Below are positions 1 to 15,407 of a DNA stretch of 64,000 nucleotides, in pieces. The notes beneath the pieces are model-generated. The model made no database searches and was not told where the DNA came from. It saw only the letters and a list, made by a program, of their open reading frames with translations. How positions within the stretch are numbered: position 1 is the first letter of the stretch; each line of letters begins with the position of its first letter. Source of the stretch: an uncultured virus (IMG/VR IMGVR_UViG_3300029288_000154) (lineage: Duplodnaviria > Heunggongvirae > Uroviricota > Caudoviricetes). The stretch is from the IMG/VR virus record IMGVR_UViG_3300029288_000154, one strand, 5' to 3'. Both the position numbers and the translations under genes were made by a program.

Positions 1-1
1 T

Positions 2-274
2 TTCGATATTTACGGCGGCTGTCAAGTTTTTTCAGACTTTGACGAATGTGTGAAGTTCGCAAAAACATTATCGAAAGATGTTTATATTTGTGGTGGGGCG
101 AGTGTTTACAAACAAGCATTAGAAAAAGATTTTGTTGACGAATTGGTCATTTCTTTCATCAAAAAAGAGTATTTGGGGGATGTGAGGTTTCCAGATTTTG
201 TTTCGATGGGGTGGATGACAAAAGAGGTCATTTACGAAACCGACTCGTTTGTAACAAAAAAATATAGAAAGTAA
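2..274 (+). CDS. folA: Dihydrofolate reductase, 5'-truncated by window edge
   Basis: Frame open from base 2; VYICGGASVYKQAL...DELVISFI...GDVRFP is the DHFR C-terminal half. Confidence 0.85.
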   Translation, partial: FDIYGGCQVFSDFDECVKFAKTLSKDVYICGGASVYKQALEKDFVDELVISFIKKEYLGDVRFPDFVSMGWMTKEVIYETDSFVTKKYRK

Positions 275-277
275 GTT

Positions 278-2107
278 ATGATAACAAAGATTAAGGTTAA
301 AGATAGAAACAATCCAGAAAAAGAAATTGTTCTGGATAGATATTTAATCAACAAAGATTCCGAACCTGTTGCTATTATTTTCGGAAAGTTTTCTCCGTGG
401 ACAGGTGGTGATTTAGAGCATGGTCACGGTCGTCTAATCAAATTGGTAAAACAAAATGGTGTGAATAAATTCTATGTTGTTTCGCCCAAACGTGACGAAA
501 ATGTAACAGGTAAGAATTCACCAAACGTCTTTTCTCCAGAAGCAAGAAAACAAATTATTGAACATTCTTTGAAAAACATTCCAGGATTTCTAGGAGTCAT
601 TCAATCAGATTCTAACAATTTGATGGGTGTGATTAAACATATGATTCATCAAGTAGACCGCCCTATTTTTGTTGTTGGACCTGATAGAGAAAGATTGACA
701 CAAACGAATTTTGTAGATTTCGCCGCGCCCGTATCAAACGAAAAAGACGCTAATTTTGGAAAACCAGAATATTTGATTCTTAAAGGTGAGCGCGAAACAT
801 CTGGAACAAAGGTTAGAGAAAGTTTGGCGAATGATGATTTCGAAACATTTCACAAGTTAACAAATCACTCAGAGCAAATGTTTCGTTTCATGAAGAATCT
901 GATGAATCAAAAAAACGAATCATTCTCAAGTTTCTACACAACAATTTTTGAAGGTGGAAATCTTAGAATCGGAAACAACAAAGCAAACAAAATAGATTTA
1001 GCTTCTAACGAACATGATGATGTTGAAGCTTTGAAGAATAGAATCAAAGATTGTTTAACTTCTTTTGTTTCAAGCTTTCCTAATTCAGATTTTTGGAAAG
1101 AATATGTAAACCTAATTCAGAAAAACGAAATCTTCTCAGGTTCGTCTAAACATTTCTTTGAGAAAACGGTTGCTGAATTTTCAAAAGTCAAGAAGCTTGT
1201 TGGTGACATCGATGTTCAGTTTCCTATTGATTATGAAGAAGATTTGGATAAGTTTATCAAATCCAATGTCGGAAGACAATTTGGTGATATGATTCTCTTA
1301 GGTCAAGGTGGAAAGTCTCCAATTCAAATTAACACTCTATTTACAGACAATCTAACGGGACTAAATATTCAGATTGATTTTGAACCAACCGATTTTCATG
1401 ACAAGATTCCGTCGGAGTTTTCTAAATTCTCTAGGTCTTCTGATTGGTCTGACCTGAAAGAAAACATCAAAGGAGTATTTCATAAATATCTTCTTAGAGC
1501 GTTGGTTGGTTCTACAAAAATAAATAACATCTTTGTAGTTACATCTTATAATAAACTGGCTGAAAAATGGAGAGTTTCTAAAAAAGATTACGAAGGAACA
1601 AATCTCCAAGGATTCTCAGTTGACAAAGGTGTAAGAGTAAAATACGAACGAGCAAAAAACAAAGAAGGGAAAGAATTCTTTGTTGATAGAGATGGGAATG
1701 AATTTTTAACACAAGAAGCGGGAACGAAACCTGCTTATGTGGAAACTGATACAAAAACATATGACTACATTAAAAACGTTGGTGAAATAGCTACAATTTG
1801 TTTTGGAAGACAATTAGACAAAAATGAGCTATCGTTGTTCGCTTCGTTCGTTGGATGTCTAAAACTAATTGAAAAATATGTTGAGAATAAAGAAGATGCG
1901 TTTTCTGGATTTTTTGAATTGCTGTTTGGAAAATCGGCACAAGAAATTGAACAGGGTGAATTTGTTGGAGGAATTAACAACACAGATTTTGATGTAAAAT
2001 TTGCGGCATATTCAAAGATGAGAAATGTTAGTGATATGAATCAGCTTCCTGGAAACGAAATAGAAAGAATTAGAGAATATTACGAAGAATTAAAAAGAAA
2101 GAAGTAA
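278..2107 (+). CDS. Fusion of cytidylyltransferase-like (HIGH superfamily) domain and pol-beta-type nucleotidyltransferase-like domain
   Basis: FGKFSPW...HGH, VVGPDR, SGTKVR in N-terminal part; after FEGGN the motifs SGSS...GDIDV and IQIDF. Confidence 0.7.
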   Translation: MITKIKVKDRNNPEKEIVLDRYLINKDSEPVAIIFGKFSPWTGGDLEHGHGRLIKLVKQNGVNKFYVVSPKRDENVTGKNSPNVFSPEARKQIIEHSLKNIPGFLGVIQSDSNNLMGVIKHMIHQVDRPIFVVGPDRERLTQTNFVDFAAPVSNEKDANFGKPEYLILKGERETSGTKVRESLANDDFETFHKLTNHSEQMFRFMKNLMNQKNESFSSFYTTIFEGGNLRIGNNKANKIDLASNEHDDVEALKNRIKDCLTSFVSSFPNSDFWKEYVNLIQKNEIFSGSSKHFFEKTVAEFSKVKKLVGDIDVQFPIDYEEDLDKFIKSNVGRQFGDMILLGQGGKSPIQINTLFTDNLTGLNIQIDFEPTDFHDKIPSEFSKFSRSSDWSDLKENIKGVFHKYLLRALVGSTKINNIFVVTSYNKLAEKWRVSKKDYEGTNLQGFSVDKGVRVKYERAKNKEGKEFFVDRDGNEFLTQEAGTKPAYVETDTKTYDYIKNVGEIATICFGRQLDKNELSLFASFVGCLKLIEKYVENKEDAFSGFFELLFGKSAQEIEQGEFVGGINNTDFDVKFAAYSKMRNVSDMNQLPGNEIERIREYYEELKRKK

Positions 2108-2108
2108 C

Positions 2109-2375
2109 TTGAAACTTGAAACAAAACTTCACAAATTCTATACAACTAGTTATAAACTAATGTTTGAACCAGATGTTGATGATTGTGAAACTTTGTTGAG
2201 TTGTATCGCAAGAAATCACGAAAACGATGGAACTCATTGGTTAATTGAACAACTTAAGTTTGATGAAGATGATATTCATATTTACAAACATAATTTGTTT
2301 GGTTATATTTTATCTTTTGGAAAACAACATTATAAGTATTCGCGATTCAAAGCAAAGTTTAAGAATGAAACTTAA
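2109..2375 (+). CDS. Small MKI-family protein
   Basis: TTG start, MKLETKL...YSRFK; clear paralog of 3049..3294 (IHI..H..FGYI.SF.K). Confidence 0.6.
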   Translation: MKLETKLHKFYTTSYKLMFEPDVDDCETLLSCIARNHENDGTHWLIEQLKFDEDDIHIYKHNLFGYILSFGKQHYKYSRFKAKFKNET

Positions 2376-2622
2376 AACATATATTTCGTTTTCTTCCTCG
2401 GCAGCATCTCCACAAGGAACGACATATATTATTTTTGGCGACGTTAGACTACTCATAAACAAAACAATTAGTATTTTATTTAGTTCGGTTTTTATGAAAA
2501 ATCATTCATCATTTATTGTTAAAACTATATCTGTGCTAGATTATGAGAAATTGAGAGTTATTATAAAATATTATAGAAATCTAAAATACGAATATAAAAA
2601 ACTTCAGGAATTTCAACTATGA
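2365..2622 (+). CDS. Small MKI-family protein
   Basis: MKLKTYI...YEKLR; start re-called from 2245 to ATG 2365 overlapping upstream stop. Confidence 0.6.
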   Translation: MKLKTYISFSSSAASPQGTTYIIFGDVRLLINKTISILFSSVFMKNHSSFIVKTISVLDYEKLRVIIKYYRNLKYEYKKLQEFQL

Positions 2623-2789
2623 AAATAACATTATCAATCTCTACATTTTCTGGAAATTCATTTTTAATTTATACCGGAGATGTTAATGATGGAAAACGTG
2701 GACTTGATTTGCTAGATGTTGATTACATTAACGGAGTGGAAGTCTATAGAAAAACAACATCAAATAGATTGAAGAGGTGGGTTTTGTGA
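2619..2789 (+). CDS. Small MKI-family protein (56 aa, below ORF-track cutoff)
   Basis: Hand translation MKITLSISTF...SNRLKRWVL; ATGA overlap upstream, GTGA overlap downstream. Confidence 0.6.
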   Translation: MKITLSISTFSGNSFLIYTGDVNDGKRGLDLLDVDYINGVEVYRKTTSNRLKRWVL

Positions 2790-3052
2790 AAATTGAAACA
2801 AAGATAGATTATTATTCGGAAATTGACTTAGTAAAAGTTAATACTAATTTAATAGCCATTTATAATTATATTGGTCATTATTGTGAAATTTATTTCAAAA
2901 CTACCAAACACGTTGAACATATTTCAAAAAGAACCCCGGATATAAATTACAAAAAACTAAGATTTGTCACAAGAAAACACGCAGAACTTATGATAATAAT
3001 GAACAAATTTGAAGAAATAAAAAAAGAAATGGACGAAATGTCGTTATCATGA
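2786..3052 (+). CDS. Small MKI-family protein
   Basis: GTG start, KIETKI...YKKLRF. Confidence 0.6.
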   Translation: MKIETKIDYYSEIDLVKVNTNLIAIYNYIGHYCEIYFKTTKHVEHISKRTPDINYKKLRFVTRKHAELMIIMNKFEEIKKEMDEMSLS

Positions 3053-3294
3053 AAATTGAAACTAAAATACAAAAATATTATTACTCTAATTTTTACTTCA
3101 AACATGGACTTGGAAGTTTCGCGGATTTAATAGCTAAAAGAGAATGCTATTTAGATTTGACGAAGCATTCGTATTATTTTGATAAAGAGTCGTGCTTAAA
3201 TATAGAAAATCCAAAAATTCACATAATGCGCCACAAAACCTTTGGTTACATAGTTTCATTTGACAAAATTTACCGAACAGAAAGATTTCAATGA
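3049..3294 (+). CDS. Small MKI-family protein
   Basis: MKIETKI; ATGA overlaps at both ends. Confidence 0.6.
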   Translation: MKIETKIQKYYYSNFYFKHGLGSFADLIAKRECYLDLTKHSYYFDKESCLNIENPKIHIMRHKTFGYIVSFDKIYRTERFQ

Positions 3295-4169
3295 GTTTCA
3301 AAGAACAATATATGCCCGCCACAAAAAGAAAATCTATCACACATCTTTATGATGAAAAGAATCCAATGAAACCTTTGGATTTCATTTCTTTTTGTGAAAC
3401 CGTCAAATCAAAAGGCTATATTCTTTCAGACAAAAATTCCAAGTTTTCAGAAAAGATAGATGGTTTTGGTTTTCGTTTTGGAAAAGATTCGCACCAAAAT
3501 TTCTTCATCGAATCTTCTAACTCCGGACCAATCTTTTCTCCGGGGTGTTTCAGAAACTATTCAATTCAAAAACATGGAAGTTCAAATGAAATAACAGAAG
3601 CATACGAACAACTATTTGATATTTTAAGTTCTGATAAAAAATTGAATTTTGTTTTGGATAATTATAAAGATGGAATTAAAGTCATCTGCGAATGCCTGTT
3701 CACTTCTCTTGGGAAAAAGAACAACGTAAAACGAAAATTTGTTTGTATTGAATATGACGAAGACAAACTCGGAACCGTGGCAACATTTTCTATCATAAAA
3801 ATAGAAGATGCTTATGGAAACGAATTGAATTGCGTAGATGAAATTTTGGAATTGAGCAATAATAAAATCAAAATTGTTTCAAGTTATTTCAAAGATTTTC
3901 AAATAGATTTCAAGAAACAAGTTGATGAAGTTTTGAACATTGTTGATACTAAACAAATCTTAACCAATCTAAAAAGAGATGAAGAATCAATAAGACAACG
4001 AAATGAATTGAAAGAACGATTGCTGAAAATACAAAAGCAGATGAAAGATTGTGTTTTGGAAAAGTTTAATGTTGGAATGCTGGGAAATGAATATGAAGGG
4101 TTCGTTTTAACAGTAGATGATTTTGTTGTTAAGTTTGTAACCGAACACTTTACGAATGGTAAGAAATGA
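3291..4169 (+). CDS. RNA-ligase-like covalent nucleotidyltransferase (DUF6267-like phage protein)
   Basis: Motif I SEKIDG, EGFVL (motif IV-like), VKFV (motif V-like), N-terminal ITHL. Confidence 0.65.
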   Translation: MSFKEQYMPATKRKSITHLYDEKNPMKPLDFISFCETVKSKGYILSDKNSKFSEKIDGFGFRFGKDSHQNFFIESSNSGPIFSPGCFRNYSIQKHGSSNEITEAYEQLFDILSSDKKLNFVLDNYKDGIKVICECLFTSLGKKNNVKRKFVCIEYDEDKLGTVATFSIIKIEDAYGNELNCVDEILELSNNKIKIVSSYFKDFQIDFKKQVDEVLNIVDTKQILTNLKRDEESIRQRNELKERLLKIQKQMKDCVLEKFNVGMLGNEYEGFVLTVDDFVVKFVTEHFTNGKK

Positions 4170-4321
4170 AAATAACCGCTAAAATTAAAAAAGATGACGG
4201 GCGGTGGGTTTTTGAAAAAGGATTGTATGTTATCTTTAGTTATTTGTTAGTTTTTGTTCCTGAAATTAAAATATTCAAAACAAATTATTTCCACAAAAGA
4301 ATGATGAAATATGAAAATTAA
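4166..4321 (+). CDS. Small MKI-family protein (51 aa)
   Basis: Hand translation MKITAKIKK...HKRMMKYEN. Confidence 0.55.
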   Translation: MKITAKIKKDDGRWVFEKGLYVIFSYLLVFVPEIKIFKTNYFHKRMMKYEN

Positions 4322-4574
4322 GATGAATCTAATAATGAAATGTGGTGATATTCAATTCATTTCGTCAGTTTCGTTGTTTAATACTTATCTCCATCCAAGA
4401 TTAAGAAAATATGAAAATTAGAGCGAAGATAACCACACAAAACTCTGCCACCTGTCGGCCTGGAAAAATGTATAATTTGTTGTTCATTTTTGGAACATTG
4501 CTAGTAAGTATTCAACAAGAACCACCGTATTTGAAATTTGTTTATAGTAGTAGGATGAACAAATATGAAAATTA
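4307..4574 (+). repeat. Three exact copies of AAATATGAAAATTA at ORF junctions
   Basis: Copies at 4307-4320, 4407-4420 and 4561-4574; each encodes KYEN-stop in one frame and MKI in another. Confidence 0.85.
4311..4421 (+). CDS. Small MKI-family protein (36 aa)
   Basis: MKIKMNLI...HPRLRKYEN. Confidence 0.5.
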   Translation: MKIKMNLIMKCGDIQFISSVSLFNTYLHPRLRKYEN

Positions 4575-4575
4575 A
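4411..4575 (+). CDS. Small MKI-family protein (54 aa)
   Basis: MKIRAKIT...SSRMNKYEN. Confidence 0.55.
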   Translation: MKIRAKITTQNSATCRPGKMYNLLFIFGTLLVSIQQEPPYLKFVYSSRMNKYEN

Positions 4576-4765
4576 AACGGGTGTAAAAGAAGAAGGCGAC
4601 GATGTTTGTTTTTATTTAATCAACATTGACAAGAAATTAAAAACTGGATATATTTGTTCGGATTTCCCGCAAGATTTTCTTATTTTTAGAACAACCATAA
4701 ATTTTTCAAAAAGAAGATTTCAAAAATTGTTTAGAGAGAAGATTCAAGAAGTTTTTATTGACTAA
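4565..4765 (+). CDS. Small MKI-family protein
   Basis: MKIKTGV...KRRFQKL. Confidence 0.55.
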   Translation: MKIKTGVKEEGDDVCFYLINIDKKLKTGYICSDFPQDFLIFRTTINFSKRRFQKLFREKIQEVFID

Positions 4766-4769
4766 ATAT

Positions 4770-4919
4770 ATGAAAATAACAACAAAAATAGTTATGGTAC
4801 CTTGGATAAATATTTATATCATTGGTCCGGTTGTTTTAACATCCGCAAATCATACATTTAGAGCTGGCCCGAAAAGAATGGAAAGGTATTATATTGGAAA
4901 CATACAGAGATTTGAGTGA
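4770..4919 (+). CDS. Small MKI-family protein (49 aa)
   Basis: MKITTKIV...PKRMERY. Confidence 0.55.
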   Translation: MKITTKIVMVPWINIYIIGPVVLTSANHTFRAGPKRMERYYIGNIQRFE

Positions 4920-5424
4920 CAGAATAGTTTGGTGTTTCTCCGATACACATTTCTATCATACAAACGTGATTGGTTTTTGTTCTCGTCCATTTTTAACAAC
5001 AAATGAAATGAATGAAACAATGTTCAACAATTGGAATTCAACAGTGTCAGAAGATGATGTTGTTTTGTTTCTTGGTGATTTTGTTGTTGGTTCTGGAAAG
5101 TTTGGAATTGAAAAAGGAGAAGCTTCAAAAATCATTTATGACAATTTGAATGGTGAGAAAATATTCATAAGAGGAAATCATGACAAGGGAGTAACAACCA
5201 TTCCATATCATGAAGACCCAACAATGAAAATTTCTTACAAAGGACATTCATTTCTTTTGTCGCATCATCCAATAACTGTGTTTTCCGCAAACTTTCTTTT
5301 GCATGGTCATATACACAACTCGCAACATGAAATAAGAAATTGTAAAAGAGCGTTTAATTGCGGTGTTGAAGACCTTAATTACAAACCAATAAATTTAGAT
5401 GATGTAATAGAAAAATTGAAATAA
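4894..5424 (+). CDS. Calcineurin-like metallophosphoesterase (true start may be TTG 4912)
   Basis: SDTHFYH, LGDF, RGNHD, SHHP, HGHIH motifs. Confidence 0.9.
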   Translation: METYRDLSDRIVWCFSDTHFYHTNVIGFCSRPFLTTNEMNETMFNNWNSTVSEDDVVLFLGDFVVGSGKFGIEKGEASKIIYDNLNGEKIFIRGNHDKGVTTIPYHEDPTMKISYKGHSFLLSHHPITVFSANFLLHGHIHNSQHEIRNCKRAFNCGVEDLNYKPINLDDVIEKLK

Positions 5425-5444
5425 CAATTAAAACAAGGTAAAAT
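5416..5444 (+). promoter_or_regulatory. sigma70-type promoter interrupted just downstream by the TnpB element
   Basis: TTGAAA-17 nt-TAAAAT. Confidence 0.6.
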
Positions 5445-5600
5445 AACCGTTTCATCAAATCTACATAACATGTGTTTGCCACAATTTTGTAGATATAATT
5501 TCTTGTTTCATAGACGAGCACTGTTCAATTAAGAACTGCAATCTATCATCTCCACAAGCGTAACTTTCCGTAGAACTTACGGTAGTTGAATTTTCATCCA
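5425..5600 (-). ncRNA. Predicted TnpB omegaRNA (right-end RNA) with flank-derived guide TTATTTTACCTTGTTTTAATTG
   Basis: tnpB 3' end (TVSSTESYACG...SSMKQE) then ATCTACA...TGTAGAT hairpin ending GAAACGG, typical of an IS607-type right end; boundaries approximate. Confidence 0.6.
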
Positions 5601-6762
5601 AATGTTTGTCTATCAACCAGAGGCCAAAGAACTGGAGATTTTTCGTAGCGTTGACATCTCTATCATGTTCTGCTCCACATTTCTTACAAGTCCATTCTCT
5701 GTCGGATAGTTTTAATTCTTTATATTTTGTTCCACAAGATGAACAGAATTTAGATGAAGCATAAAACTGATGAGCTTGAATTAAATGTATTCCAGCCCAC
5801 TCACATTTATACTTCAGTAATTCTTTAATCTTGCCAAATGAAGAATCTAATATAGCTCCTGCGAGTTTATGATTTTTCACCATGTTGTTTGGCTTCAATG
5901 TTTCTATCACAATCATCTTTGGCTTGGTTTTCACCAACGATGTGGTTAATTTGTGAATAGAATCGTTACGAACATCCCCAATTTTCTTATGAACTTTCGC
6001 TAATTTTGTTACGGATTTTCTCCTATTCTTGCTTTCTTTTTGTTTTCGCGAAACTCTTCTCTGATATCTCTTAAGTTTCTTTAGATACTTACGATAAGTT
6101 TTAGGATTCTCAAAAGTCTGACCATCAGAAGTTATGGCTAATTCTTTTATACCTAAATCCACTCCGAGAACATCTTCCTGATGGATTTGGTGAACGGCGG
6201 CTAAGTCCGGGGCATCAATTTCTTCTTTTAGCAGAAATGAAACAAACCATCTATCAGCTTGCCGGAATATGGTTGCTTGTGTTAGTTTAACTCGCCATTC
6301 TAAGATAGGATAACATTTTTCTTTCAGTCTAACTTTACCAAATGTAGGTAATTGAATATGAGTTGGTGATAAATAGACAGAACCGTCAAGACGAAACGAA
6401 TCTTTCGCACCTCGTTTCTTATATTTTGGGTAATTTGATGTTTTTGAAAAGAATCTTTTAAAAGCTTTTTCTAAATTTCTAAGCGCTTCTTGCCCACAGC
6501 ACTTTGAAACGTCGTAAATCCATGGATTGTCTTTCTTAAAACAACACCATTCTTTGTGCCAGTCAATCGCCGAGCCAAGTTTACATTTAGGCTTTTCTAA
6601 ACCCAGTTCTTTAGCATCTTTCTTAGCTATTTCGTATCTTTCAGTAAGTTTGTGAAGCATCCAGTTATAGGCAAATCTTGCTGTTCCTGCACTTTTAACA
6701 CACAAAGCCCGTTGAGTTTTATTCAATTTCAGTTCAAGCCTATAACCTCTATATACTACCAT
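5461..6762 (-). CDS. tnpB: TnpB RNA-guided endonuclease (IS607/IS605 family), RuvC triad intact
   Basis: N-terminal RGYRLELKLN...AGTARFAYNW; RuvC GVDLG, IVIETL, DRDVNA; Zn finger CSSC...CKKC. Confidence 0.95.
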   Translation of the reverse strand: MVVYRGYRLELKLNKTQRALCVKSAGTARFAYNWMLHKLTERYEIAKKDAKELGLEKPKCKLGSAIDWHKEWCCFKKDNPWIYDVSKCCGQEALRNLEKAFKRFFSKTSNYPKYKKRGAKDSFRLDGSVYLSPTHIQLPTFGKVRLKEKCYPILEWRVKLTQATIFRQADRWFVSFLLKEEIDAPDLAAVHQIHQEDVLGVDLGIKELAITSDGQTFENPKTYRKYLKKLKRYQRRVSRKQKESKNRRKSVTKLAKVHKKIGDVRNDSIHKLTTSLVKTKPKMIVIETLKPNNMVKNHKLAGAILDSSFGKIKELLKYKCEWAGIHLIQAHQFYASSKFCSSCGTKYKELKLSDREWTCKKCGAEHDRDVNATKNLQFFGLWLIDKHLDENSTTVSSTESYACGDDRLQFLIEQCSSMKQEIISTKLWQTHVM

Positions 6763-6767
6763 GAAAG

Positions 6768-6773
6768 TATTTA
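6768..6773 (-). promoter_or_regulatory. T4-like late promoter for tnpB
   Basis: Minus strand CATAAATA-CTTTC-ATG; same 5-nt spacing as at 17379, 26389 and 40841. Confidence 0.65.
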
Positions 6774-6895
6774 TGAACCCGACCAGAACTATTAGATGTA
6801 ATTTATATTATGAAAATCGCATATTGTCTTGGTTGTATATAACTTTAACAGATACAACTAAATGTTGCTATTCTTTGATATGTCCCGGTAAAGAC

Positions 6896-6930
6896 AAAAG
6901 GAACAAAAATTAAATTTTTGTTCCTTTTTT
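6896..6930. terminator. Bidirectional intrinsic terminator
   Basis: AAAAGGAACAAAAAT-TAA-ATTTTTGTTCCTTTT perfect inverted repeat with A/T tails. Confidence 0.75.
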
Positions 6931-6988
6931 GTTAATTTTATTTATTCCGCGATAAAATAACCTCTGGAGGATGCACCCTCTGGAGGTT
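6929..6988 (+). promoter_or_regulatory. sigma70-type promoter followed by hairpin containing the Shine-Dalgarno
   Basis: TTGTTA-18-TAAAAT, then AACCTCTGGAGG-ATGCAC-CCTCTGGAGGTT (two GU pairs). Confidence 0.55.
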
Positions 6989-6990
6989 TT

Positions 6991-7164
6991 TTGTTTTTAT
7001 ATCCACCAAAAAGATTTGCTAAACTCAACATCAAACTTTGCGGTGAGTGTGGCTGGTCGTATTCATTAACAAGAATTGCTGGACGACTAGAAATGAAAAT
7101 AAGAAGAACGAATGTTATCTATTCTCCTTACATGCCTCTTTTTGTTCATAAAGTTATTATTTGA
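6991..7164 (+). CDS. Small hypothetical protein (57 aa)
   Basis: GGAGG then TTG; MFLYPPKRFAKLNIKLCGECGW...VHKVII by hand translation. Confidence 0.45.
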   Translation: MFLYPPKRFAKLNIKLCGECGWSYSLTRIAGRLEMKIRRTNVIYSPYMPLFVHKVII

Positions 7165-7175
7165 AAGGAATCAAA

Positions 7176-8303
7176 TTGAAAAAAGGATTAGTTGTAGAAA
7201 AATCAAATGTTAAAGGATTGGGAACTATTTTTTATTATTTCGGCCATTCAGCAACCGCCGAGAATGTTGGAGAACGTGGGGTTTCGCATTTAGCTGAACA
7301 TCTTCTGTGTAAGTCTTTTGACCATTTACTATCAACGATTACAACGTATAGCGTTTCTTATAACGCATTTACATCAGACGACCACGTTTGTTTTTATTGG
7401 TCTGGACTTGATGATAAGTTGACAGAATTAGAACCAGAGTTCAAGAAGTTGTTTAATTTCGTTCCAACTAAAGAACAATTTGAATTAGAAAAGTCAATCA
7501 TCATTCAAGAATATACTGGATGGTTCGCTGGACAATCTGCCATTTACGCAAACATAAATAGAAAATATTACGATTACTACGGACCAATTGGTTGCCGTCA
7601 AGATATTGAATCTATTTCATATGAACATTTTCTTGAATTTTACAAGCGGTTCAGTTCTCCAACAATCATTTACCGAGTTACTGGAAACAAGAAGTCGGAA
7701 ATTAAAGAACTTTACAAAGGAATTAAGTTTTCGAATCCTGTAAAACTAAAGAAAAAGAAAGCATCTAAACTTGTCATTGAAGAAACATCATCTTTTCCTA
7801 ATTCTGTTACTTTAATTGATTGGGTTGATGTTTCTAAATTTGAAAAGCACGAAATTGAGTTTGTTTCTTCTATGTTTTCTAATGGATTGGAATCGCCTCT
7901 TTATAAAGAAATCAGAGAGAACCGTGGATTGGTCTATGGACTAGGAACTTATACGGAAGACTTCGGAGATGTAAACAAATTTGAGTTTGTTGCTCAGTGC
8001 GTTCCTGAAAATGTTGCAGAAGTCAGAAGTGTTGCGAATGAGATTTTGACGAACCCTGAGAAATATTTAACAAGAGAGCGTTTTGAAAGTATCAAGATGT
8101 CAAGTGTTAATAATGAAAAACTAAAAAACATTCAGAACCAAGGAACCGGGTCAATCTTAAACAAAATCATTTATGGTAAAGACTATTTCGAAAAGATTCA
8201 AAACTTGACATTTGAACGAGTGATGGAAGTTGCCAATCTTTTGAAAGTTGAGTTGGAAACAAATGTTAAACACGCTTCTTTAGGCGAAACGCAGGAGATT
8301 TGA
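7176..8303 (+). CDS. M16 (insulinase-family) zinc peptidase
   Basis: GVSHLAEH inverted HxxEH, YNAFT, EKSIIIQE, SPLYKEIRENRGLVY; start moved to TTG after AAAGGA. Confidence 0.9.
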   Translation: MKKGLVVEKSNVKGLGTIFYYFGHSATAENVGERGVSHLAEHLLCKSFDHLLSTITTYSVSYNAFTSDDHVCFYWSGLDDKLTELEPEFKKLFNFVPTKEQFELEKSIIIQEYTGWFAGQSAIYANINRKYYDYYGPIGCRQDIESISYEHFLEFYKRFSSPTIIYRVTGNKKSEIKELYKGIKFSNPVKLKKKKASKLVIEETSSFPNSVTLIDWVDVSKFEKHEIEFVSSMFSNGLESPLYKEIRENRGLVYGLGTYTEDFGDVNKFEFVAQCVPENVAEVRSVANEILTNPEKYLTRERFESIKMSSVNNEKLKNIQNQGTGSILNKIIYGKDYFEKIQNLTFERVMEVANLLKVELETNVKHASLGETQEI

Positions 8304-8306
8304 AAA

Positions 8307-8798
8307 ATGGTAGAACTATATTTTGCGAAACTAAACGATAGAGCAAAGATTCCAACAAAATCAGATGAGAACGCTGGTTATGATGTTTATGCTAATTTTG
8401 ATGATGATTATATTGTCATTGAATCTCACGAAACAAAAATGATTCCAACTGGTATTGCTTCTGTTATTTCACAAGAATATTATTTCCAATTATTCGAACG
8501 AGGCTCAACCGGAACAAAAGGAATTGGTCAGCGATGTGGAGTTATCGATTCTTCATATCGGGGAGAATGGTTTATTCCAATCACAAACCACAATCCAAAA
8601 TGGTTGGTGATTTTCAAAAAAGAAGTAGAATCAAAATTTAGAGACAACATCTACCTCAAGTATCCGTATGAAAAAGCTCTTTCTCAGGCGGTTCTTCTTC
8701 CAGTTCCAAAAACAATCATCAAAGAAATTTCCGCAGAAGAATTGAAGAACTTTGGAACAAATCGCGGTGCAGGAATGCTTGGAAGTTCTGGTAAGTAA
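8307..8798 (+). CDS. dut: dUTPase (trimeric)
   Basis: AGYD, IPTG, RGS, GVIDSSYRGE, RGAGMLGSSG. Confidence 0.95.
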   Translation: MVELYFAKLNDRAKIPTKSDENAGYDVYANFDDDYIVIESHETKMIPTGIASVISQEYYFQLFERGSTGTKGIGQRCGVIDSSYRGEWFIPITNHNPKWLVIFKKEVESKFRDNIYLKYPYEKALSQAVLLPVPKTIIKEISAEELKNFGTNRGAGMLGSSGK

Positions 8799-8809
8799 GA
8801 AATTTTCAC

Positions 8810-8838
8810 TTGAAACTAAATTTCCCCAAAGATAAAAA
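8810..8838 (+). promoter_or_regulatory. sigma70-type promoter of CCAAAGATAAAA class
   Basis: TTGAAA-17-TAAAAA with the CCAAAGA spacer shared with 44117 and 44498. Confidence 0.5.
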
Positions 8839-8887
8839 TAAAAGAAGAGAAGGCGTGATACCCTTCCTAAATCAAAGGACAATAACA

Positions 8888-9088
8888 ATGGAGTATAAGT
8901 TAATCGCAGATACGAACTCAACAAAGTTTGCTGAACAAATCAACGCCGCAATTGCTGACGGTTTTGAACTTTATGGACAACCTTTCACTCGCGATGGATT
9001 CTATGAAGAGAGAGATAGGGACGGACAGCGCGGAGAATTTAATTATCGTCCTCTGTTTGCTCAGGCTCTTGTTCGTGGAGGTAAGTAA
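8888..9088 (+). CDS. DUF1737-like small protein
   Basis: MEYKLI...INAAIADGFELYGQPF...FAQALVR; AAGGA upstream of ATG 8888. Confidence 0.75.
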   Translation: MEYKLIADTNSTKFAEQINAAIADGFELYGQPFTRDGFYEERDRDGQRGEFNYRPLFAQALVRGGK

Positions 9089-9789
9089 TGGTTGTTACAT
9101 TTAACAAAGAAGTTCTCGCACTGATTGATGAACTAACTTCTATCAATGCTGCTATTAAGATTTACAAGGATGATAACAAGCTTTTCATTAAGTCTCAGAA
9201 TCCTTCAGAGTCTATGGCATACATCTTGACAACCGAAGTTTCTTCGTTTGATTTTGATGGTGAAGAGATTGCGTTCTATAATTATTCTGATTTTTACAAG
9301 TGGATTTCGGCTCTAAATGTTACAGAGATTTCGCAGTCGGCTGATGGAATGCTTCAGCTTGGAAACGGAAAGCAGCGTGGGCAGTATCAGAGTTCAGATG
9401 TTGATATTGTTAAGGGTGGAAATTTCGACATTGAGTTTGAAGACCCGGACGTTACTTTCAATCTTTCTTCGGAAAATCTTAAAGAGATGACCAAGCTGAA
9501 GAATCTGATTGCTAAGGACAATAACAATCTTAAGTTTACGTTTGATGGCCGTGTTGGTCATATTGAGATTTACAACACAGAGACTTCAAATATGGTTGAG
9601 ACAGATATCGATCTTTTGAACACTGTTGATGAAGCATTCTCTATTAGGTTGTCAGATGAATTTCTAACAACTCTTCCAGGAAAGTATTCGTATCGTGTTG
9701 ATGTTAAACGTGAAGGAATTGCGCGTTTTAGTATGAACAACGACCTTGGTGTTGATGTTGAACTTTACATTGCGGAAGTTGAGGAATAA
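9088..9789 (+). CDS. gp45: T4 gp45-like DNA polymerase sliding clamp
   Basis: LTSINAAI, IAFYNYSDF, DVTFNLSSENLKEM, LYIAEVE pattern; size and position upstream of clamp loader. Confidence 0.8.
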   Translation: MVVTFNKEVLALIDELTSINAAIKIYKDDNKLFIKSQNPSESMAYILTTEVSSFDFDGEEIAFYNYSDFYKWISALNVTEISQSADGMLQLGNGKQRGQYQSSDVDIVKGGNFDIEFEDPDVTFNLSSENLKEMTKLKNLIAKDNNNLKFTFDGRVGHIEIYNTETSNMVETDIDLLNTVDEAFSIRLSDEFLTTLPGKYSYRVDVKREGIARFSMNNDLGVDVELYIAEVEE

Positions 9790-10406
9790 TGGAACTAGAA
9801 AATTTAAACAACGAAGAAGAGATTCTACCTACAGAAGAAATTCAATACGAAGCCGACTCGGTTGAGACTGGAACAATTACAACTTCTGATAACTATAAAC
9901 CAGTTAAAGACGAAACTGTTCTCGTAGACCCGACCACTGGAGCCGTAATTGATGTTAAAACTCTTCCTCCGTTTGAACGAATCAAGTTCGTTTCGGAAAG
10001 AATGGGAAAGAAAATCAACGACCCTGATAAGAATTGTAAGAAGTGCTACGGACGAGGTTATGTGAATATTGACGCTAACGATGGTGTTCCGACTCCTTGC
10101 CAGTGTATTTTTCATGATTTTTATGAAGCAAATCCGTACTACAAGAACGTTGAATATCCTTCATTCAATCGTGCCACAAAGCGAGCTTACGAAAGGCAGG
10201 CAAAGAAGAAGCATCTTCCAAATCATGCTCTCGAAAAGCGTCAGAAGCGAATGAACGATTTGATGAAGGATTCTATCAAGAAGATGCTTGCTAAGGAAGC
10301 TTTGGAGAATGCTGAACTTGAAACGGCAGAAACCGAAGTCATTGAACAAGCTCCGTTTGATGGTGTTGAATCCGCAGAGTTTACTCCAATCAAAAGTGAG
10401 GAATAA
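9789..10406 (+). CDS. Acidic protein with CxxC/CxC zinc finger
   Basis: CKKCYGRG...PCQC; strong SD. Confidence 0.7.
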   Translation: MELENLNNEEEILPTEEIQYEADSVETGTITTSDNYKPVKDETVLVDPTTGAVIDVKTLPPFERIKFVSERMGKKINDPDKNCKKCYGRGYVNIDANDGVPTPCQCIFHDFYEANPYYKNVEYPSFNRATKRAYERQAKKKHLPNHALEKRQKRMNDLMKDSIKKMLAKEALENAELETAETEVIEQAPFDGVESAEFTPIKSEE

Positions 10407-11341
10407 TGGCAAATAGAGCTGATTTTACTCTTTGGGTTGAAAAGTATCGTCCACAAAAAATAGACCATGCGATTCTTCCTAACGAATATAAGAAGTTCTT
10501 TAGAAAAATTGTAAAGACAGGAGATATTCCAAATCTCCTTCTTTACTCTTCTTCTCCTGGAACTGGTAAAACAACAATCGCTAAAGCTCTGTGTCTTGAA
10601 GCCGGAGTTGATTATCTTTACATCAATGCTTCAAAAGATACAGGAATTGACACTCTAAGAACAACTATTACGAAATATGCTTCTGGAAAATCACTTTCGG
10701 GAAAAAAGAAAGTTGTGATTCTGGATGAGGTAGACGGTTCTTCAGCAACTTCATTCCAAGCAGCATTGAGAGCGTTCATTGAAGAATTTCACAATAGTTG
10801 CCGATTTATTTTAACCTGTAATTATGTGAACAAAATCATTTCTCCTCTTCGGTCACGTTGTCAGGAATTTGATTTCAATGTAACTACAAAAGAACTACGA
10901 CAAGAATTGGTTCCTAAGATTACACAAAGATTAGAAAAGATATTGGACACCGAAGAAGTCACATATTCTGATGGGGTTGTTGGTAAATTGTCAGATGCGC
11001 TTTTTCCAGACATAAGGAAAATGCTATCGATGCTCCAGCAGTATTCAACTATTTCTGGACATGTTGATGAGAATATTTTCAAGTATGAGTCTGTGGATGA
11101 GGAGTTTTACGAATTTATTCTCAACAAGCAATTCACCAAAGCCCGTCAGTTTGTGATCGATTCTGGATATAATTTAGATGAATTATATACTGCTCTTTAC
11201 AGAAATCTTGTTCCGAGAATGCCGAAAGAAAATCAAGGACAAGCAATTCTTTCAATAGCAGAGTGGCAGTATCGTTCAGCTTTTAGTGCGGATAAAGAAA
11301 TTCCTTTTGCCGCGATGTTATTGGAGATTATTAACTTATGA
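10406..11341 (+). CDS. gp44: T4 gp44-like clamp loader ATPase subunit
   Basis: WVEKYRP, PGTGKTT, DEVD, FILTCN, LRSRC, FPDIRK. Confidence 0.95.
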   Translation: MANRADFTLWVEKYRPQKIDHAILPNEYKKFFRKIVKTGDIPNLLLYSSSPGTGKTTIAKALCLEAGVDYLYINASKDTGIDTLRTTITKYASGKSLSGKKKVVILDEVDGSSATSFQAALRAFIEEFHNSCRFILTCNYVNKIISPLRSRCQEFDFNVTTKELRQELVPKITQRLEKILDTEEVTYSDGVVGKLSDALFPDIRKMLSMLQQYSTISGHVDENIFKYESVDEEFYEFILNKQFTKARQFVIDSGYNLDELYTALYRNLVPRMPKENQGQAILSIAEWQYRSAFSADKEIPFAAMLLEIINL

Positions 11342-11583
11342 ACAAAACAGATGAATTTAATATGGGGCGAAAAAGGCTTATCGAAATAGAAATGGTGGAT
11401 GGTAGTGTCAAAAAAATACAATTATCTAAATCAACGTCTTATGATACGGATTTGGTAACAGGCGATGCTATGTATATTGAACCCAATAAAGATGGGACAT
11501 ATAGATTGAGTCACGGGTCCAAGATGTTTCAATCCTTAGATGATATTGTTTCGATAAAGATTATTAGAGAAGATTTCAAATGA
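11338..11583 (+). CDS. Hypothetical protein
   Basis: Coupled ORF with SD. Confidence 0.65.
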   Translation: MNKTDEFNMGRKRLIEIEMVDGSVKKIQLSKSTSYDTDLVTGDAMYIEPNKDGTYRLSHGSKMFQSLDDIVSIKIIREDFK

Positions 11584-11849
11584 CTCCAAACGAATTTCAC
11601 ATCCAAAACAAAAACGGAATTTATCTTTTTGCCTCGGTTCATTGTGGAAAATGTTCAGAACAAAAAGAAAAGATGAAAAATGTAAAACATGTTGTTGTTG
11701 AATGTGATATTGACCCCGAATTTCTTTATAAAACATACAGAGTTGATTTAATTCCGTGTGTTAGAGTTTATAAAGATAACTTGGTTGTTTATGAGAAGTT
11801 GTTAGTTATGAATGACAAAGAATTGGAACATCTGAAGACCTATGAATGA
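11580..11849 (+). CDS. Thioredoxin-like protein
   Basis: FASVHCGKC and cis-Pro region LIPCV. Confidence 0.7.
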   Translation: MTPNEFHIQNKNGIYLFASVHCGKCSEQKEKMKNVKHVVVECDIDPEFLYKTYRVDLIPCVRVYKDNLVVYEKLLVMNDKELEHLKTYE

Positions 11850-12081
11850 AATCGTTGTTTTCTATTCAAACAAATGCCACACTTGTCAGGACCACATAAA
11901 GGAACTTGACAAGAAGTGGAAGAGTGAGAAAATTTGTGTTGATGATTTCCCGGAATTATATGAAGAATATCATTTGAATGTAACACCAACAACAATTGTG
12001 AAAAAGCTGGATTTTGAAATTTGGAGATGTGAAGGAATGATGTTTGATAAGCAATACGAAGAAATGAGAAGGTTTTTGTGA
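11842..12081 (+). CDS. Thioredoxin-like protein
   Basis: FYSNKCHTC and VTPTTIV. Confidence 0.75.
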   Translation: MNEIVVFYSNKCHTCQDHIKELDKKWKSEKICVDDFPELYEEYHLNVTPTTIVKKLDFEIWRCEGMMFDKQYEEMRRFL

Positions 12082-12644
12082 ATTGTTACATAACAATCAT
12101 AGGACCAAGGGATAAAAAGAAAGAATATCCTAATTCAATCGTAATAAACACAACATCGTGTTCGTCTGATTTTGGAAAAGGGTTATCTCCATTCTATCTT
12201 GGACCGTGTAATCTTTACGACGGTTGGATTTCAAAAACTGTAGAAAATGCTTGGCAATATTCGAAAGTTTATGAGAAACACGCAACTGACGGAGAACCAA
12301 ACGACGGATATTGGAATTGGGCCTATTCTGGTTGGAATTCATCAAAAGGCGAAAGATATCCCATGGGGAAAGGTGCGAAACCATTATACTCTCTTTGGAA
12401 TGGTGAAAAATTAAATTATATTGAAGCACGTAGGAAGATTTATATTCCGGTTTATTCTGAAGCAGCAAGAAAATCAGAAGCATACAAACAATTAAAAGAT
12501 TTATATGACAGTGGAGAGAATTTGGTTATGTGGGATTTTGATGGATACGAAACTAATTTAGAAATGGAAGAGATAATAAACAATACAAAACATTCAATGG
12601 GACATGCGTTTGTTCTTAAGTGGATGTTGGAGGGTAAGATATGA
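12078..12644 (+). CDS. Conserved viral protein (DUF6939/NADAR-like, tentative)
   Basis: LSPFYLGP, VENAWQYSKVY, ARRKIYIPVY, GHAFVL. Confidence 0.5.
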   Translation: MNCYITIIGPRDKKKEYPNSIVINTTSCSSDFGKGLSPFYLGPCNLYDGWISKTVENAWQYSKVYEKHATDGEPNDGYWNWAYSGWNSSKGERYPMGKGAKPLYSLWNGEKLNYIEARRKIYIPVYSEAARKSEAYKQLKDLYDSGENLVMWDFDGYETNLEMEEIINNTKHSMGHAFVLKWMLEGKI

Positions 12645-13234: not shown

Positions 13235-13241
13235 AACGTAA

Positions 13242-13610
13242 ATGAACCTCTCTTGCGCATACGGAATTCCTGCTTCTGGAAAAACAACATTTCTTAAAAC
13301 TTTACCAGGAGAATATTACGATTATGATTCTCCCGACAAAAGAAAGAAAGTAAAACAATTCATTGAATCTCTTTCAAATGGTGAATATGTAATTGATTTT
13401 CTTTTGAAGCAACCAAATGATTTCGTAGAGTTTTTCTTTTCAAAGTTTCAGAATTCTAATCTAACAATTTATTATTTTGTTCCTAATAGAGAAGAATCAG
13501 AACTAAGAGATAAAAATAGAAGAGAAAAATCATCATTAGATTTGATTAAAAATATGACACTGGAAGAAATAAAAGAACACAAAAACTTAACAATAAAGGT
13601 AATATCATGA
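13242..13610 (+). CDS. P-loop kinase (polynucleotide-kinase/AAA_33-like)
   Basis: GIPASGKTT Walker A; R..R lid (LRDKNRR). Confidence 0.65.
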   Translation: MNLSCAYGIPASGKTTFLKTLPGEYYDYDSPDKRKKVKQFIESLSNGEYVIDFLLKQPNDFVEFFFSKFQNSNLTIYYFVPNREESELRDKNRREKSSLDLIKNMTLEEIKEHKNLTIKVIS

Positions 13611-14226: not shown

Positions 14227-14227
14227 A

Positions 14228-15357: not shown

Positions 15358-15373
15358 AGGCTTTTTACTCCGA

Positions 15374-15379: not shown

Positions 15380-15407
15380 ATTAAAGAATTATCGGAGATT
15401 TTTAATT

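What the first reader, a model, noticed from the sequence alone, without database searches (positions are those of the whole stretch)
5416..6962. TnpB element inserted in a promoter, with the promoter as guide and a second promoter copy on the far side
Seen: the right end (minus strand ...GATTTGATGAAACGG) abuts TTATTTTACCTTGTTTTAATTG, the reverse complement of the spacer and -10 box of a TTGAAA-17-TAAAAT promoter (5416-5444). TAAAATAACC is directly repeated at 5439-5448 and 6953-6962; deleting between the repeats gives a clean promoter followed by the hairpin and ORF at 6959-7164. The element side has a bidirectional terminator (6896-6930) and a replacement -35/-10. RuvC D/E/D residues are intact; no tnpA. 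Established: IS607 elements recombine at a GG core and TnpB guides come from the right flank. Inference: homing-like element that cuts the empty allele of co-infecting relatives at a promoter that is hard to mutate, while leaving downstream expression intact. The left junction shares only the first 8 guide bases, which may avoid self-cleavage or allow binding without cutting. An alternative left end near CCCGG at 6884-6888 cannot be excluded.
Basis: partly seen in the sequence, partly recalled or inferred. Interest (0 to 1): 0.75.

Follow-up and report, generated by a model that had tools for sequence, protein, structure and literature searches.

The report
Solo TnpB element in jumbo phage
A transposon-type RNA-guided nuclease gene (TnpB) with its guide RNA, but without its transposase, sits between two genes of a very large phage next to a likely promoter; it is a known kind of selfish element in an interesting place.

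Summary
The sequence features are real. A 433-aa TnpB (minus strand, 5461-6762) has an intact RuvC triad and zinc finger. A structured, covarying omegaRNA scaffold ends at ...GAAACGG. Conservation across relatives stops at that same base, so the guide is the flank TTATTTTACCTTGTTTTAAT (5446-5427). Some relatives carry a serine-recombinase tnpA, which places the element in the IS607 family. The window has no tnpA.

The left end is not fixed. No family-type left end is detectable upstream of tnpB. A junction near 6886 fits the family's spacing.

The promoter call is plausible but unproven. Sigma-70-like matches are at chance level overall. However, TTGAAW-N17-TAAAAT occurs only three times in the window, and the other two copies lie in intergenic gaps 24-53 nt upstream of ORF starts. 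The hairpin at 6959-6988 is the best terminator in 20 kb, so the target looks like a composite promoter/stem-loop cassette.

The window is a large T4-like-replisome phage (contig about 305 kb). Close relatives of this TnpB lie among phage genes, often several per contig. No empty allele or RNA data could be found. Homing between co-infecting phages therefore remains an inference from known TnpB biology.

The parts
5461..6762 (-). tnpB, 433 aa, RuvC D202/E287/D369 and CxxC...CxxC intact
5447..5606 (-). omegaRNA scaffold. It overlaps the last ~145 nt of tnpB and ends at ...GAAACGG (GG = 5448, 5447).
   Evidence: 30 pairs, 97.4% of cells paired against 35-44% when partners are slid, 9 pairs with compensatory changes; z -2.59.
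5427..5446 (-). Flank that supplies the guide (TTATTTTACCTTGTTTTAAT on the minus strand). This is the target sequence of an element-free allele. The start is uncertain by about 2 nt.
   Evidence: Conservation across relatives ends at 5447. No other near match in the window.
5416..5444 (+). Promoter-like site TTGAAA-17-TAAAAT. The -35 hexamer abuts the stop codon (TAA 5422-5424) of the phosphoesterase gene.
5439..5448 (+). Direct repeat copy 1, TAAAATAACC (-10 box plus AACC). It abuts the right end.
6953..6962 (+). Direct repeat copy 2, TAAAATAACC.
6961..6965 (-). Candidate TAM AGAGG (minus strand), including the GG core at 6961-6962
   Evidence: flanks of relatives; PMC11061315 and 10.1101/2023.11.20.567912 passages
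6763..6960 (-). Region upstream of tnpB. No family-type left end is detectable. It contains a CATAAATA box at 6775-6768, 5 nt before the ATG.
6896..6928 (.). Near-perfect 33-nt palindrome, a bidirectional terminator-like hairpin (15 pairs)
6929..6958 (+). Outward-facing promoter-like site TTGTTA-18-TAAAAT
   Evidence: 9 of 12
6959..6998 (+). Stem-loop (12 pairs, loop ATGCAC) plus T-run: an intrinsic terminator directly after the -10/AACC
   Evidence: top-ranked in 1-20000
6884..6888 (-). Alternative left junction (CCGGG on the minus strand)
   Evidence: Its distance to the ATG (about 122 nt) fits the 95-125 nt of relatives. The TAM fit is poorer.
4894..5424 (+). Flanking phage gene: metallophosphoesterase
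7161..8303 (+). Flanking phage gene: M16-like peptidase, followed by dUTPase (8307-8798)

Best explanation
This is a transposase-less IS607-family tnpB/omegaRNA element of about 1.5 kb. It lies antisense to the phage's genes, in the regulatory gap between a phosphoesterase gene and the M16-peptidase/dUTPase/clamp gene block of a roughly 305-kb phage.

Shown:
- TnpB is full length with its catalytic residues.
- The omegaRNA scaffold is conserved and covaries.
- The scaffold ends at GG (5448/5447), so the transcript continues into the flank and carries the guide TTATTTTACCTTGTTTTAAT.
- Relatives have IS607-type serine recombinases, GG at both ends, and RRGGG-like motifs 5' of the left end.
- The window has no tnpA and no recognisable left end, so transposition from this copy is unlikely.

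Inferred from published TnpB work:
- TnpB-omegaRNA cuts phage genomes that lack the insertion, at AGAGG plus the guide match.
- Recombinational repair from the occupied genome then copies the element in. This is non-restorative homing, like a free-standing homing endonuclease gene.
- The occupied allele is protected because only 8 to 9 of the 20 guide positions match at the left junction.

The site hit is a composite promoter/stem-loop cassette. It consists of stop codon, TTGAAA-17-TAAAAT, AACC, and then a terminator hairpin. The element's left side carries a terminator-like palindrome and a second -10/AACC copy next to that hairpin. This arrangement could stop antisense read-through and restart downstream transcription, but that is not shown.
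For: - Identity: Pfam domains. Invariant D/E/D and Cys. Closest solved structure is ISDra2 TnpB, E 1.1e-53.
- Right end and guide: 40 of 46 rows share the AAC-GG-type end and then diverge.
- omegaRNA: 97.4% of cells paired against 35-44% for slid controls. 9 of 30 pairs have compensatory changes. Helix 1 has them in 5 of 5 pairs.
- IS607 membership of the clade: MerR-HTH plus Resolvase tnpA upstream of tnpB in relatives.
- TAM: the 12 relatives' left flanks are AAGGG x4, GAGGG x2, AGGGG x2, TGGGG, TAGGG, AAAGG and AGAGG. Published TAMs are AGGAG/GAGGG (PMC11061315 passages) and TGGG with a strict GG (10.1101/2023.11.20.567912 passages).
- No tnpA in the window. No left-end profile or PWM hit.
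- The guide has no second target in the window.
- Phage context: sliding clamp, clamp loader, dNMP kinase, ThyA, dUTPase, sigma factor, prohead protease. 106 of 115 ORFs are on the + strand.
- Phage residence of the clade: 14 of 17 relatives' loci have flanking proteins that hit PHROG families with a named function (tail sheath/tube, baseplate, head closure, Dda-like helicase, ligase and others). Among one genome for each of 185,579 species, the only copies above 45% identity are four on one 212,780-bp contig. That contig also encodes a homolog of the window's clamp loader.
- Promoter: TTGAAW-N17-TAAAAT gives 3 matches against 0.56 expected. TTGA-N19-TAAAATAA gives 3 against 0.16, and 0 of 100 shuffles reach 3. 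The other two copies lie in intergenic gaps upstream of ORFs.
- Concept: homing into orthologous sites of phages is proposed 'theoretically', and TnpA-independent spread has been shown in plasmids (PMC13565253 passages).
Against: - No element-free allele was found in any collection. The nearest relatives of the flanking peptidase are only 60-68% identical.
- No RNA data, so the omegaRNA ends, tnpB expression and promoter activity are untested.
- Sigma-70-like matches are at chance frequency overall. The promoter pattern counts are post hoc, because the pattern was derived from this site.
- The phage's most recurrent promoter motif (CTTGACTTG..., 6 on the + strand) is not present here.
- The left boundary is unresolved, so the TAM of the empty site is not certain.
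- AGAGG has A at -3, where 10 of 12 relatives have G.
- IS607 elements are reported to make no target duplication. The 8 extra repeated bases are therefore unexplained by this model.
Confidence: 0.6

Rival explanations
1. Same element, different left boundary. The insertion ends near 6886 (CCGGG on the minus strand). The stretch 6889-6998 is then native phage DNA: a terminator, a second promoter copy and a second stem-loop. Under this reading the phage had two tandem promoter/stem-loop cassettes, and the 10-nt repeat is simply the shared -10/AACC of two promoter copies.
For: - The distance from 6886 to the tnpB ATG (about 122 nt) fits the 95-125 nt seen in relatives with a recognisable left end.
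- This phage does repeat promoter cassettes. Two copies sharing CAAAGATAAAATAA lie 381 nt apart around a small ORF, one of them right after a terminator.
- GATAAAATAAC at 6951-6961 is identical to the copy at 44519.
- Tandem or degraded promoter/stem-loop cassettes near indels are described for T4-like phages (PMC4122927 passages).
Against: - CCGGG/ACCGG has C at position -4, where 12 of 12 relatives have a purine.
- The sequence after that GG starts GA/AC, where 11 of 12 relatives have TT.
Under this model that is a coincidence.
- Outside the 11-mer, similarity between 6885-6980 and the 44498 cassette is only compositional.
Confidence: 0.25
2. The full first-reader model. The promoter was chosen as the guide because it is hard to mutate. 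The element carries a replacement promoter that keeps downstream genes expressed. The 8-base match at the left junction lets TnpB bind its own junction without cutting.
For: - The guide overlaps the -10 box and spacer of a promoter-like site of a recurrent type.
- The left side has TTG at -35 distance (18 nt) before the second TAAAAT, preceded by a terminator-like palindrome.
- The repeat is unusually long. Identity between left-end tip and right flank is 0-3 nt in 9 relatives against 8 nt here.
- The 10-mer occurs nowhere else in the window.
Against: - There is no expression data.
- Relatives' right flanks are diverse and show no common promoter context.
- Published IS607 TnpB loses activity with single mismatches in positions 1-13 (PMC11061315 passages). 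Whether 8 matches allow stable binding is unknown.
- 'Hard to mutate' is untested.
- A transcript starting about 7 nt after either -10 would begin inside the terminator's 5' arm. That is unusual, though one described class of T4-type cassettes has this layout (PMC2839356 passages).
Confidence: 0.2
3. An inert relic. A solo tnpB was left after loss of tnpA and the left end. It is carried passively by the phage, and both the direct repeat and the promoter resemblance are chance in AT-rich DNA.
For: - No tnpA and no recognisable left end.
- Promoter-like matches are at chance level overall.
- In 8 of 100 shuffles a window-wide count of 2 for the 10-mer is reached.
Against: - The ORF is full length with all catalytic and zinc-binding residues.
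- The window's own omegaRNA keeps nearly all consensus pairs.
- The clade is multi-copy in phage contigs with intact ORFs.
- The second 10-mer copy lies within the 250 nt that matter and at a GG. By my own estimate's expected count, the chance of that is roughly 1e-3.
Confidence: 0.12

Closest known systems
IS607-family tnpB/omegaRNA elements (CboIStron IS607; ISFba1-type IS607 TnpBs)
   Same: - TnpB with RuvC and a zinc finger.
- A guide RNA that overlaps the 3' end of tnpB and runs into the right flank.
- GG at the element end.
- A G-rich motif 5' of the left end.
- Relatives carry a MerR-HTH plus resolvase-type TnpA.
   Different: - This copy has no tnpA and no recognisable left end.
- Its RNA is not RAGATH-18: no Rfam match at E up to 1 in 4500-8000, nor at gathering score in the whole window.
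- The protein is closer to ISDra2 TnpB (1.1e-53) than to the 384-aa 'Transposase' chain 8iaz (1.2e-43).
- A 10-nt rather than 2-nt repeat flanks it.
- It resides in a lytic-type giant phage.
ISDra2 TnpB (IS200/IS605), solved structures 8bf8/8ex9/8h1j
   Same: Best-matching natural solved structure, aligned over residues 6-377. It is an RNA-guided nuclease that cuts the element-free site.
   Different: ISDra2 uses a tyrosine (HUH) TnpA and an AT-rich TAM (recalled). Here the clade's transposase is a serine recombinase and the flank motif is G-rich.
Free-standing homing endonuclease genes of T4-type phages (seg, mob)
   Same: A nuclease gene inserted between conserved phage genes. It is expected to cut the genome of a co-infecting relative that lacks it and to be copied in by repair (PMC13565253 passages).
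   Different: Specificity here would come from an RNA guide plus a TAM, and self is distinguished by presence or absence of the insertion. Nothing was tested here.
PeSL promoter/stem-loop cassettes of T4-like phages
   Same: A stop codon in an AT-rich stretch, a sigma-70-like promoter with an N17 spacer, and a stem-loop that terminates upstream transcription. One described subclass has the stem-loop just downstream of the -10. The cassettes mark sites of insertion and deletion and can form mini-circles (PMC2839356 and PMC4122927 passages).
   Different: Only three copies of this promoter type are seen in 64 kb, and the stems are not the poly-G/poly-C type. Whether the phage is a T4 relative beyond its replisome genes is not established.
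TldR (TnpB-like nuclease-dead repressors encoded by phages)
   Same: A phage-borne TnpB-family protein whose guide lies on a promoter region.
   Different: TldRs have lost RuvC residues (abstracts in the listing). Here D202, E287 and D369 are all present.

Membership tests
TnpB (OMEGA RNA-guided nuclease) | RuvC-like domain with the D-E-D triad, a zinc-finger (TNB) insertion, and an N-terminal HTH/WED-REC region | tested here: met
   Pfam PF01385, PF07282 and PF12323. D202/E287/D369 and four Cys are invariant in 35 sequences. ISDra2 TnpB matches at E 1.1e-53.
TnpB (OMEGA RNA-guided nuclease) | A structured guide RNA scaffold that overlaps the 3' end of the gene and ends at the element's right end | tested here: met
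   A3: 30 pairs, 97.4% paired, 9 with compensatory changes. Slid controls give 35-44%. Conservation stops at ...AACGG.
TnpB (OMEGA RNA-guided nuclease) | RNA-guided, TAM-dependent DNA cleavage | not testable with these tools
   Needs a biochemical or plasmid-interference assay.
IS607 family insertion sequence | A serine-recombinase TnpA (MerR-type HTH plus resolvase catalytic domain) next to tnpB | tested here: not met
   None in the 64-kb window (best tblastn E 1.1). Present in relatives L008, L014, L024 and L030, with remnants in L007 and L043. The other roughly 241 kb of the contig could not be seen.
IS607 family insertion sequence | Element ends at a GG core dinucleotide on both sides | tested here: inconclusive
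   GG at the right end (5447-5448), as in 36 of 40 relatives. GG is present at both candidate left junctions, but the left end itself is not identifiable.
IS607 family insertion sequence | Subterminal repeats shared by the left and right ends (TnpA binding sites) | tested here: not met
   Relatives share AAATCTAyGCAAAACTATGCAA in inverted orientation at both ends. A profile and a PWM built from 11 left ends find nothing above chance in the 300 nt upstream of tnpB. The best PWM score is -26.1 against shuffle maxima of -28.3 +/- 5.7.
IS607 family insertion sequence | No target-site duplication beyond the core | tested here: not met
In 9 relatives the equivalent identity is 0-3 nt.
PeSL-like promoter/stem-loop cassette | A sigma-70-like promoter with an N17 spacer next to a stop codon, plus an adjacent terminator stem-loop, repeated in the genome | tested here: inconclusive
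   The geometry is met in the inferred empty site. There are 3 copies of the promoter type against 0.56 expected, but the pattern was derived post hoc. Activity is untested.
TldR (nuclease-dead TnpB repressor) | Loss of RuvC catalytic residues | tested here: not met
   All three residues are present.

The most novel reading that the evidence does not exclude
A TnpB lineage that lives in giant phages has given up transposition and behaves as an RNA-guided free-standing homing gene. This copy split a promoter/terminator cassette. It carries its own repair kit: a bidirectional terminator plus a copy of the interrupted -10/start region placed against the original stem-loop. Downstream phage genes would therefore stay expressed. 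The shared 10-nt sequence would act like an attachment core that lets the unit leave and enter as a circle.
Probability: 0.2. Interest if true: 0.7.

Novelty: new member of a known kind. Interest (0 to 1): 0.45.

Why it matters
TnpB is already known to be common in phages: 422 of 50,697 phage records hold a relative. TnpA-independent spread has been shown in plasmids, but for phages it is only proposed (PMC13565253 passages). My searches listed no experimental test in co-infecting phages.

This locus is a concrete test case. It combines an intact nuclease, a defined guide, a candidate TAM, no transposase, and a target that is a regulatory cassette. The clade it belongs to appears confined to large phage genomes, often in several copies. 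That makes it a natural system for asking whether RNA-guided nucleases act as homing or competition genes between phages.

Tried and rejected
**Empty allele**
- megablast of 4400-8400 against 50,697 phage records: no match.
- IMG/VR scans with the M16-like protein, with an alignment of it, and with the exact 26-nt stem-loop: nothing.
- The nearest relatives of the flanking peptidase are 68, 67, 63 and 60% identical. I could not fetch their DNA.
- A 39%-identical homolog in G001:C172 has no shared gene order.

**Reads**
- One DNA run was listed. It may be the source and is kept as contigs. One contig covers the whole stretch, and no joint skips the element. Contigs drop rare variants, so this says nothing about absence.
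- No RNA holder was listed.

**Whole genome**
- None is held for this window.

**Left end**
- Pairwise alignment, an nhmmer profile and a PWM all stayed at chance level.
- A third candidate at 6858 (AG|TTGTATCTG, similar to L004's tip) was dropped. It has no GG, no G-rich flank, and its score is within the shuffle range.

**Hairpin preference**
- Only 4 of 13 left flanks (window included) have the TAM in the 3' arm of a stable hairpin. This is not a general rule.

**Other checks**
- Rfam: only sub-threshold chance hits in 4500-8000. Nothing at gathering score in the window.
- A weak tblastn hit at 63282-63389 is a small 'MKI...' paralog, not a second tnpB.
- No CRISPR-like array lies near the gene.
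- Earlier-findings look-ups returned nothing.
Full report
**1. What is in the sequence**

The ORF on the minus strand at 5461-6762 encodes a 433-aa protein with the three TnpB Pfam domains: HTH_OrfB_IS605, OrfB_IS605 and Cas12f1-like TNB. In an alignment of 35 relatives, D202, E287, D369 and the four zinc-finger cysteines are invariant. The best natural solved relative is ISDra2 TnpB (E 1.1e-53, residues 6-377).

The neighbours are a metallophosphoesterase (4894-5424, +) and an M16-like peptidase (7161-8303, +) followed by dUTPase. 106 of 115 ORFs of 70 aa or more in the window are on the + strand, so tnpB lies antisense to the phage's genes.

The window is phage DNA. It encodes a sliding clamp, clamp loader, dNMP kinase, thymidylate synthase, dUTPase, a sigma factor, a prohead protease and a baseplate-hub-like protein. 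GC content is 33.6%. The protein database places this TnpB on a 305,169-bp contig.

**2. Right end and guide**

I fetched 79 metagenome loci, 47 viral loci and 80 genome loci that encode relatives.

- Among the 46 rows with at least 49% identity and a complete C-terminus (window included), 40 end in a shared ...TAGATTTGTTAGAAC-GG type motif. Their sequences then become unrelated.
- 36 of those 40 end in GG. The rest end in GC or GA.
- Five rows lack the motif, and one contig stops at the stop codon.

The flank is therefore the guide template. On the + strand it is 5427-5446, which covers the TAAAAT box (5439-5444) and 12 nt of the spacer. With up to 3 mismatches the 16-nt core of the guide has no better-than-chance second site in the window: 4 other matches, 4.6 expected.

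**3. The guide RNA**

The 160 nt before the right end fold into a conserved structure. In 17 sequences of the nearer subfamily, 30 consensus pairs are formed in 97.4% of cells, against 35-44% when partners are slid by 1-3 columns. Nine pairs show changes on both sides, and one 5-bp helix has them at all five pairs. No shuffle reaches the observed covariation score.

The conserved C-terminal tail of the protein is encoded by the same DNA. The window's own RNA folds with z = -2.6. It matches no Rfam family, including the RAGATH-18 RNA described for other IS607 TnpBs (PMC11061315 abstract and passages).

**4. Family**

In relatives L008, L014, L024 and L030, tnpB is preceded by a gene with a MerR-type HTH and a resolvase catalytic domain. 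L007 and L043 keep remnants. Relatives with a recognisable left end start GG-TTCGTAGCTGCTCC-AATAAATCTACGCAAAAC. This sequence holds an inverted copy of the right end's subterminal motif.

The five bases before the left-end interior are AAGGG x4, GAGGG x2, AGGGG x2, TGGGG, TAGGG, AAAGG and AGAGG in 12 distinct relatives. One of them, L039, rests on a weak profile match.

This agrees with what is published for IS607:
- a strict GG core and no target duplication;
- insertion 3' of G-rich motifs;
- TAMs AGGAG or GAGGG, or TGGG for CboIStron.

Sources: PMC13565253, PMC11061315 and 10.1101/2023.11.20.567912, passages only. The window has no tnpA.

**5. The left end is the weak point**

A profile and a position matrix built from 11 left ends find nothing above chance in the 300 nt upstream of tnpB. 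This copy has therefore lost, or never had, the family's left-end repeats. Several other relatives also lack them (L009, L013, L006, L002).

Two junctions remain possible.

- Its flank AGAGG is identical to L007's and has a purine at -4, as in 12 of 12 relatives.
- TT follows the GG, as in 11 of 12.
- It makes the 10-nt repeat abut both junctions.

*The alternative near 6886.* On the minus strand it reads TTTACCGGG|ACATATC.
- It would make 6889-6998 native phage DNA.

I put the odds at roughly 55:25, with 20% for something else.

**6. The direct repeat**

TAAAATAACC occurs only at 5439-5448 and 6953-6962 in the whole window. Two of its bases are the IS607 core. The other eight are not expected. 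In 9 relatives with both ends, the left-end tip and the right flank agree for only 0-3 nt.

The structure is what a crossover inside a shared 10-nt sequence between a circular form and the target would leave, like an attachment core. How the left tip came to match the target is unexplained. Candidates are selection for a -10 box next to the stem-loop, recombination between repeated promoter cassettes, or chance.

**7. Is the target a promoter?**

General sigma-70-like matches carry no information here: 76 found in 20 kb, 75.4 +/- 8.7 expected. The phage's clearest recurrent promoter motif is different. It is ...CGCTTGACTTG-N-AAAAATA...TAtAaT, present 6 times on the + strand, 5 of them 36-57 nt before ORF starts.

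However, TTGAAW-N17-TAAAAT occurs three times, all on the + strand:
- at 5416;
- at 44117 and 44498, which lie in intergenic gaps with their -10 boxes 53 and 24 nt before ORF starts. The second directly follows a GC-rich terminator.

Expected is 0.56, and 1 of 100 shuffles reaches 3. With the extended -10 (TAAAATAA), expected is 0.16 and 0 of 100 shuffles reach 3. These counts are post hoc, because the pattern came from this site, so I treat them as suggestive only.

The 'hairpin' after the promoter (6959-6988 plus T-run) is the best terminator-like site in the first 20 kb. A stop codon, an N17 promoter and a terminator stem-loop just after the -10 is one of the layouts described for PeSL cassettes of T4-type phages. 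Those cassettes mark indel sites and can form mini-circles (PMC2839356 and PMC4122927, abstracts and passages).

On the element's left side lie a 33-nt palindrome (6896-6928) and TTGTTA-18-TAAAAT. These could end antisense read-through and restart transcription. That is an inference.

**8. Where the clade lives**

- Among one genome for each of 185,579 species, the only copies above 45% identity are four on a single 212,780-bp contig filed under an Omnitrophota MAG. That contig also encodes a homolog of the window's clamp loader.
- Metagenome contigs carry 2-3 copies each: Ga0209098_1000123 and Ga0172381_10000033.
- About ten copies with at least 50% identity sit on IMG/VR contigs.
- I scanned 67 of the 112 flanking ORFs listed. 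Left out were the TnpB ORFs, ORFs nested antisense in others, and L012, which duplicates L130. In 14 of 17 loci at least one neighbour hit a PHROG family with a named function. These included tail sheath and tube, baseplate hub, head closure, sigma factor, Dda-like helicase, NAD ligase, PhoH and polynucleotide kinase.

This is a phage-resident TnpB lineage.

**9. How it most likely works**

Shown: an intact nuclease gene, its guide RNA scaffold, and a guide fixed by the flank.

Inferred:
- The RNP cuts genomes that carry AGAGG (or another G-rich motif) directly before TTATTTTACC..., that is, element-free relatives.
- The phage's recombination machinery repairs the break from the occupied genome.
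- Because the window holds no transposase and this copy no usable left end, this would be its likely way to spread or to resist loss.
- The occupied allele escapes cutting because only positions 1-8 and 10 match at the left junction. A characterised IS607 TnpB does not tolerate single mismatches in positions 1-13 (PMC11061315 passages).

The idea of homing into orthologous sites of phages is in print as a theoretical case, and TnpA-independent spread has been shown in plasmids (PMC13565253 passages). My four literature searches listed no experimental test in phages.

**10. Verdict**

The element is a new member of a known kind. What remains open is the left boundary, the origin of the 8 extra repeated bases, and whether either promoter-like site is active.

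Noticed in passing
window 3049-3294, 4166-4321, 4411-4575, 4565-4765, 4770-4919, 7094-7164, 63271-63469: A multi-copy family of small ORFs that start MKI(x)xKI and often end ...RM(K/N)KYEN or ...KRRMKL. They are packed head to tail with overlapping stop/start (AAATATGAAAAT). The tnpB insertion lies inside this variable-looking region. The copy at 7094-7164 is short.
   Followed up: partly
window 27890, 29175, 42673, 47313, 55635 (+ strand): A strongly conserved promoter-like motif, (T)TTCGCTTGACTTG-N-AAAAA(T)A followed by a TAtAaT-like box, lies 36-57 nt upstream of ORF starts. A sixth CTTGACTT at 31521 is inside a gene.
   Followed up: partly
window 17377, 40839, 42232 (+), 27786 and 6775 (-); loci L003, L004, L009, L015, L016, L018: A (C/G)ATAAATA(G)TT box lies 5-30 nt before the ATG of several phage genes. 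It also lies before tnpB, both here and in most relatives. It resembles the T4 late-promoter box TATAAATA (recalled). This suggests that tnpB is expressed with a phage gene class.
   Followed up: partly
window 24425-25401: Thymidylate synthase is split between two overlapping reading frames. Pfam positions 2-143 of 266 are in 24515-25150, and the PCH...NH-type C-terminal half is in the frame 24994-25401. This is a frameshift or an assembly error. No group I intron was found by Rfam at gathering score.
   Followed up: partly
window 44117-44147 and 44498-44528: Two copies of a roughly 30-nt promoter-like repeat (TTGAATTT...CCAAAGATAAAATAA) flank an 89-aa ORF. The second follows a GC-rich terminator. 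This looks like a promoter/terminator cassette around a small gene.
   Followed up: partly
G001:C18 (212,780-bp contig; loci L128-L131): A contig filed under a Candidatus Omnitrophota MAG carries four TnpB copies of this clade, a clamp-loader homolog of the window's phage, a sigma factor and an HNH endonuclease. It is probably a large phage binned with a bacterial genome.
   Followed up: partly
L009 3989-5269 and 7397-7432; L013 upstream of 3893: In some relatives tnpB is packed into phage operons with no left end at all. In L009 it starts 24 nt after a tail-tube gene, and its ORF runs past the right-end motif. In L013 the upstream sequence looked tRNA-like by eye (not checked with a tRNA finder). 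L009 also holds an inverted right-end copy 2 kb downstream.
   Followed up: no
L025 versus L026: Two near-identical insertions at the same site differ in the first four bases after the GG (ATAT... versus CTGT...). These bases are in the seed of the presumed guide.
   Followed up: no
window 38678-39463 and 33159-34508: A phage-encoded sigma factor (Sigma70_r2). Also a 449-aa protein that PHROGs call an HNH endonuclease but that Pfam reads as DUF2201 metallopeptidase/VWA-like.
   Followed up: no
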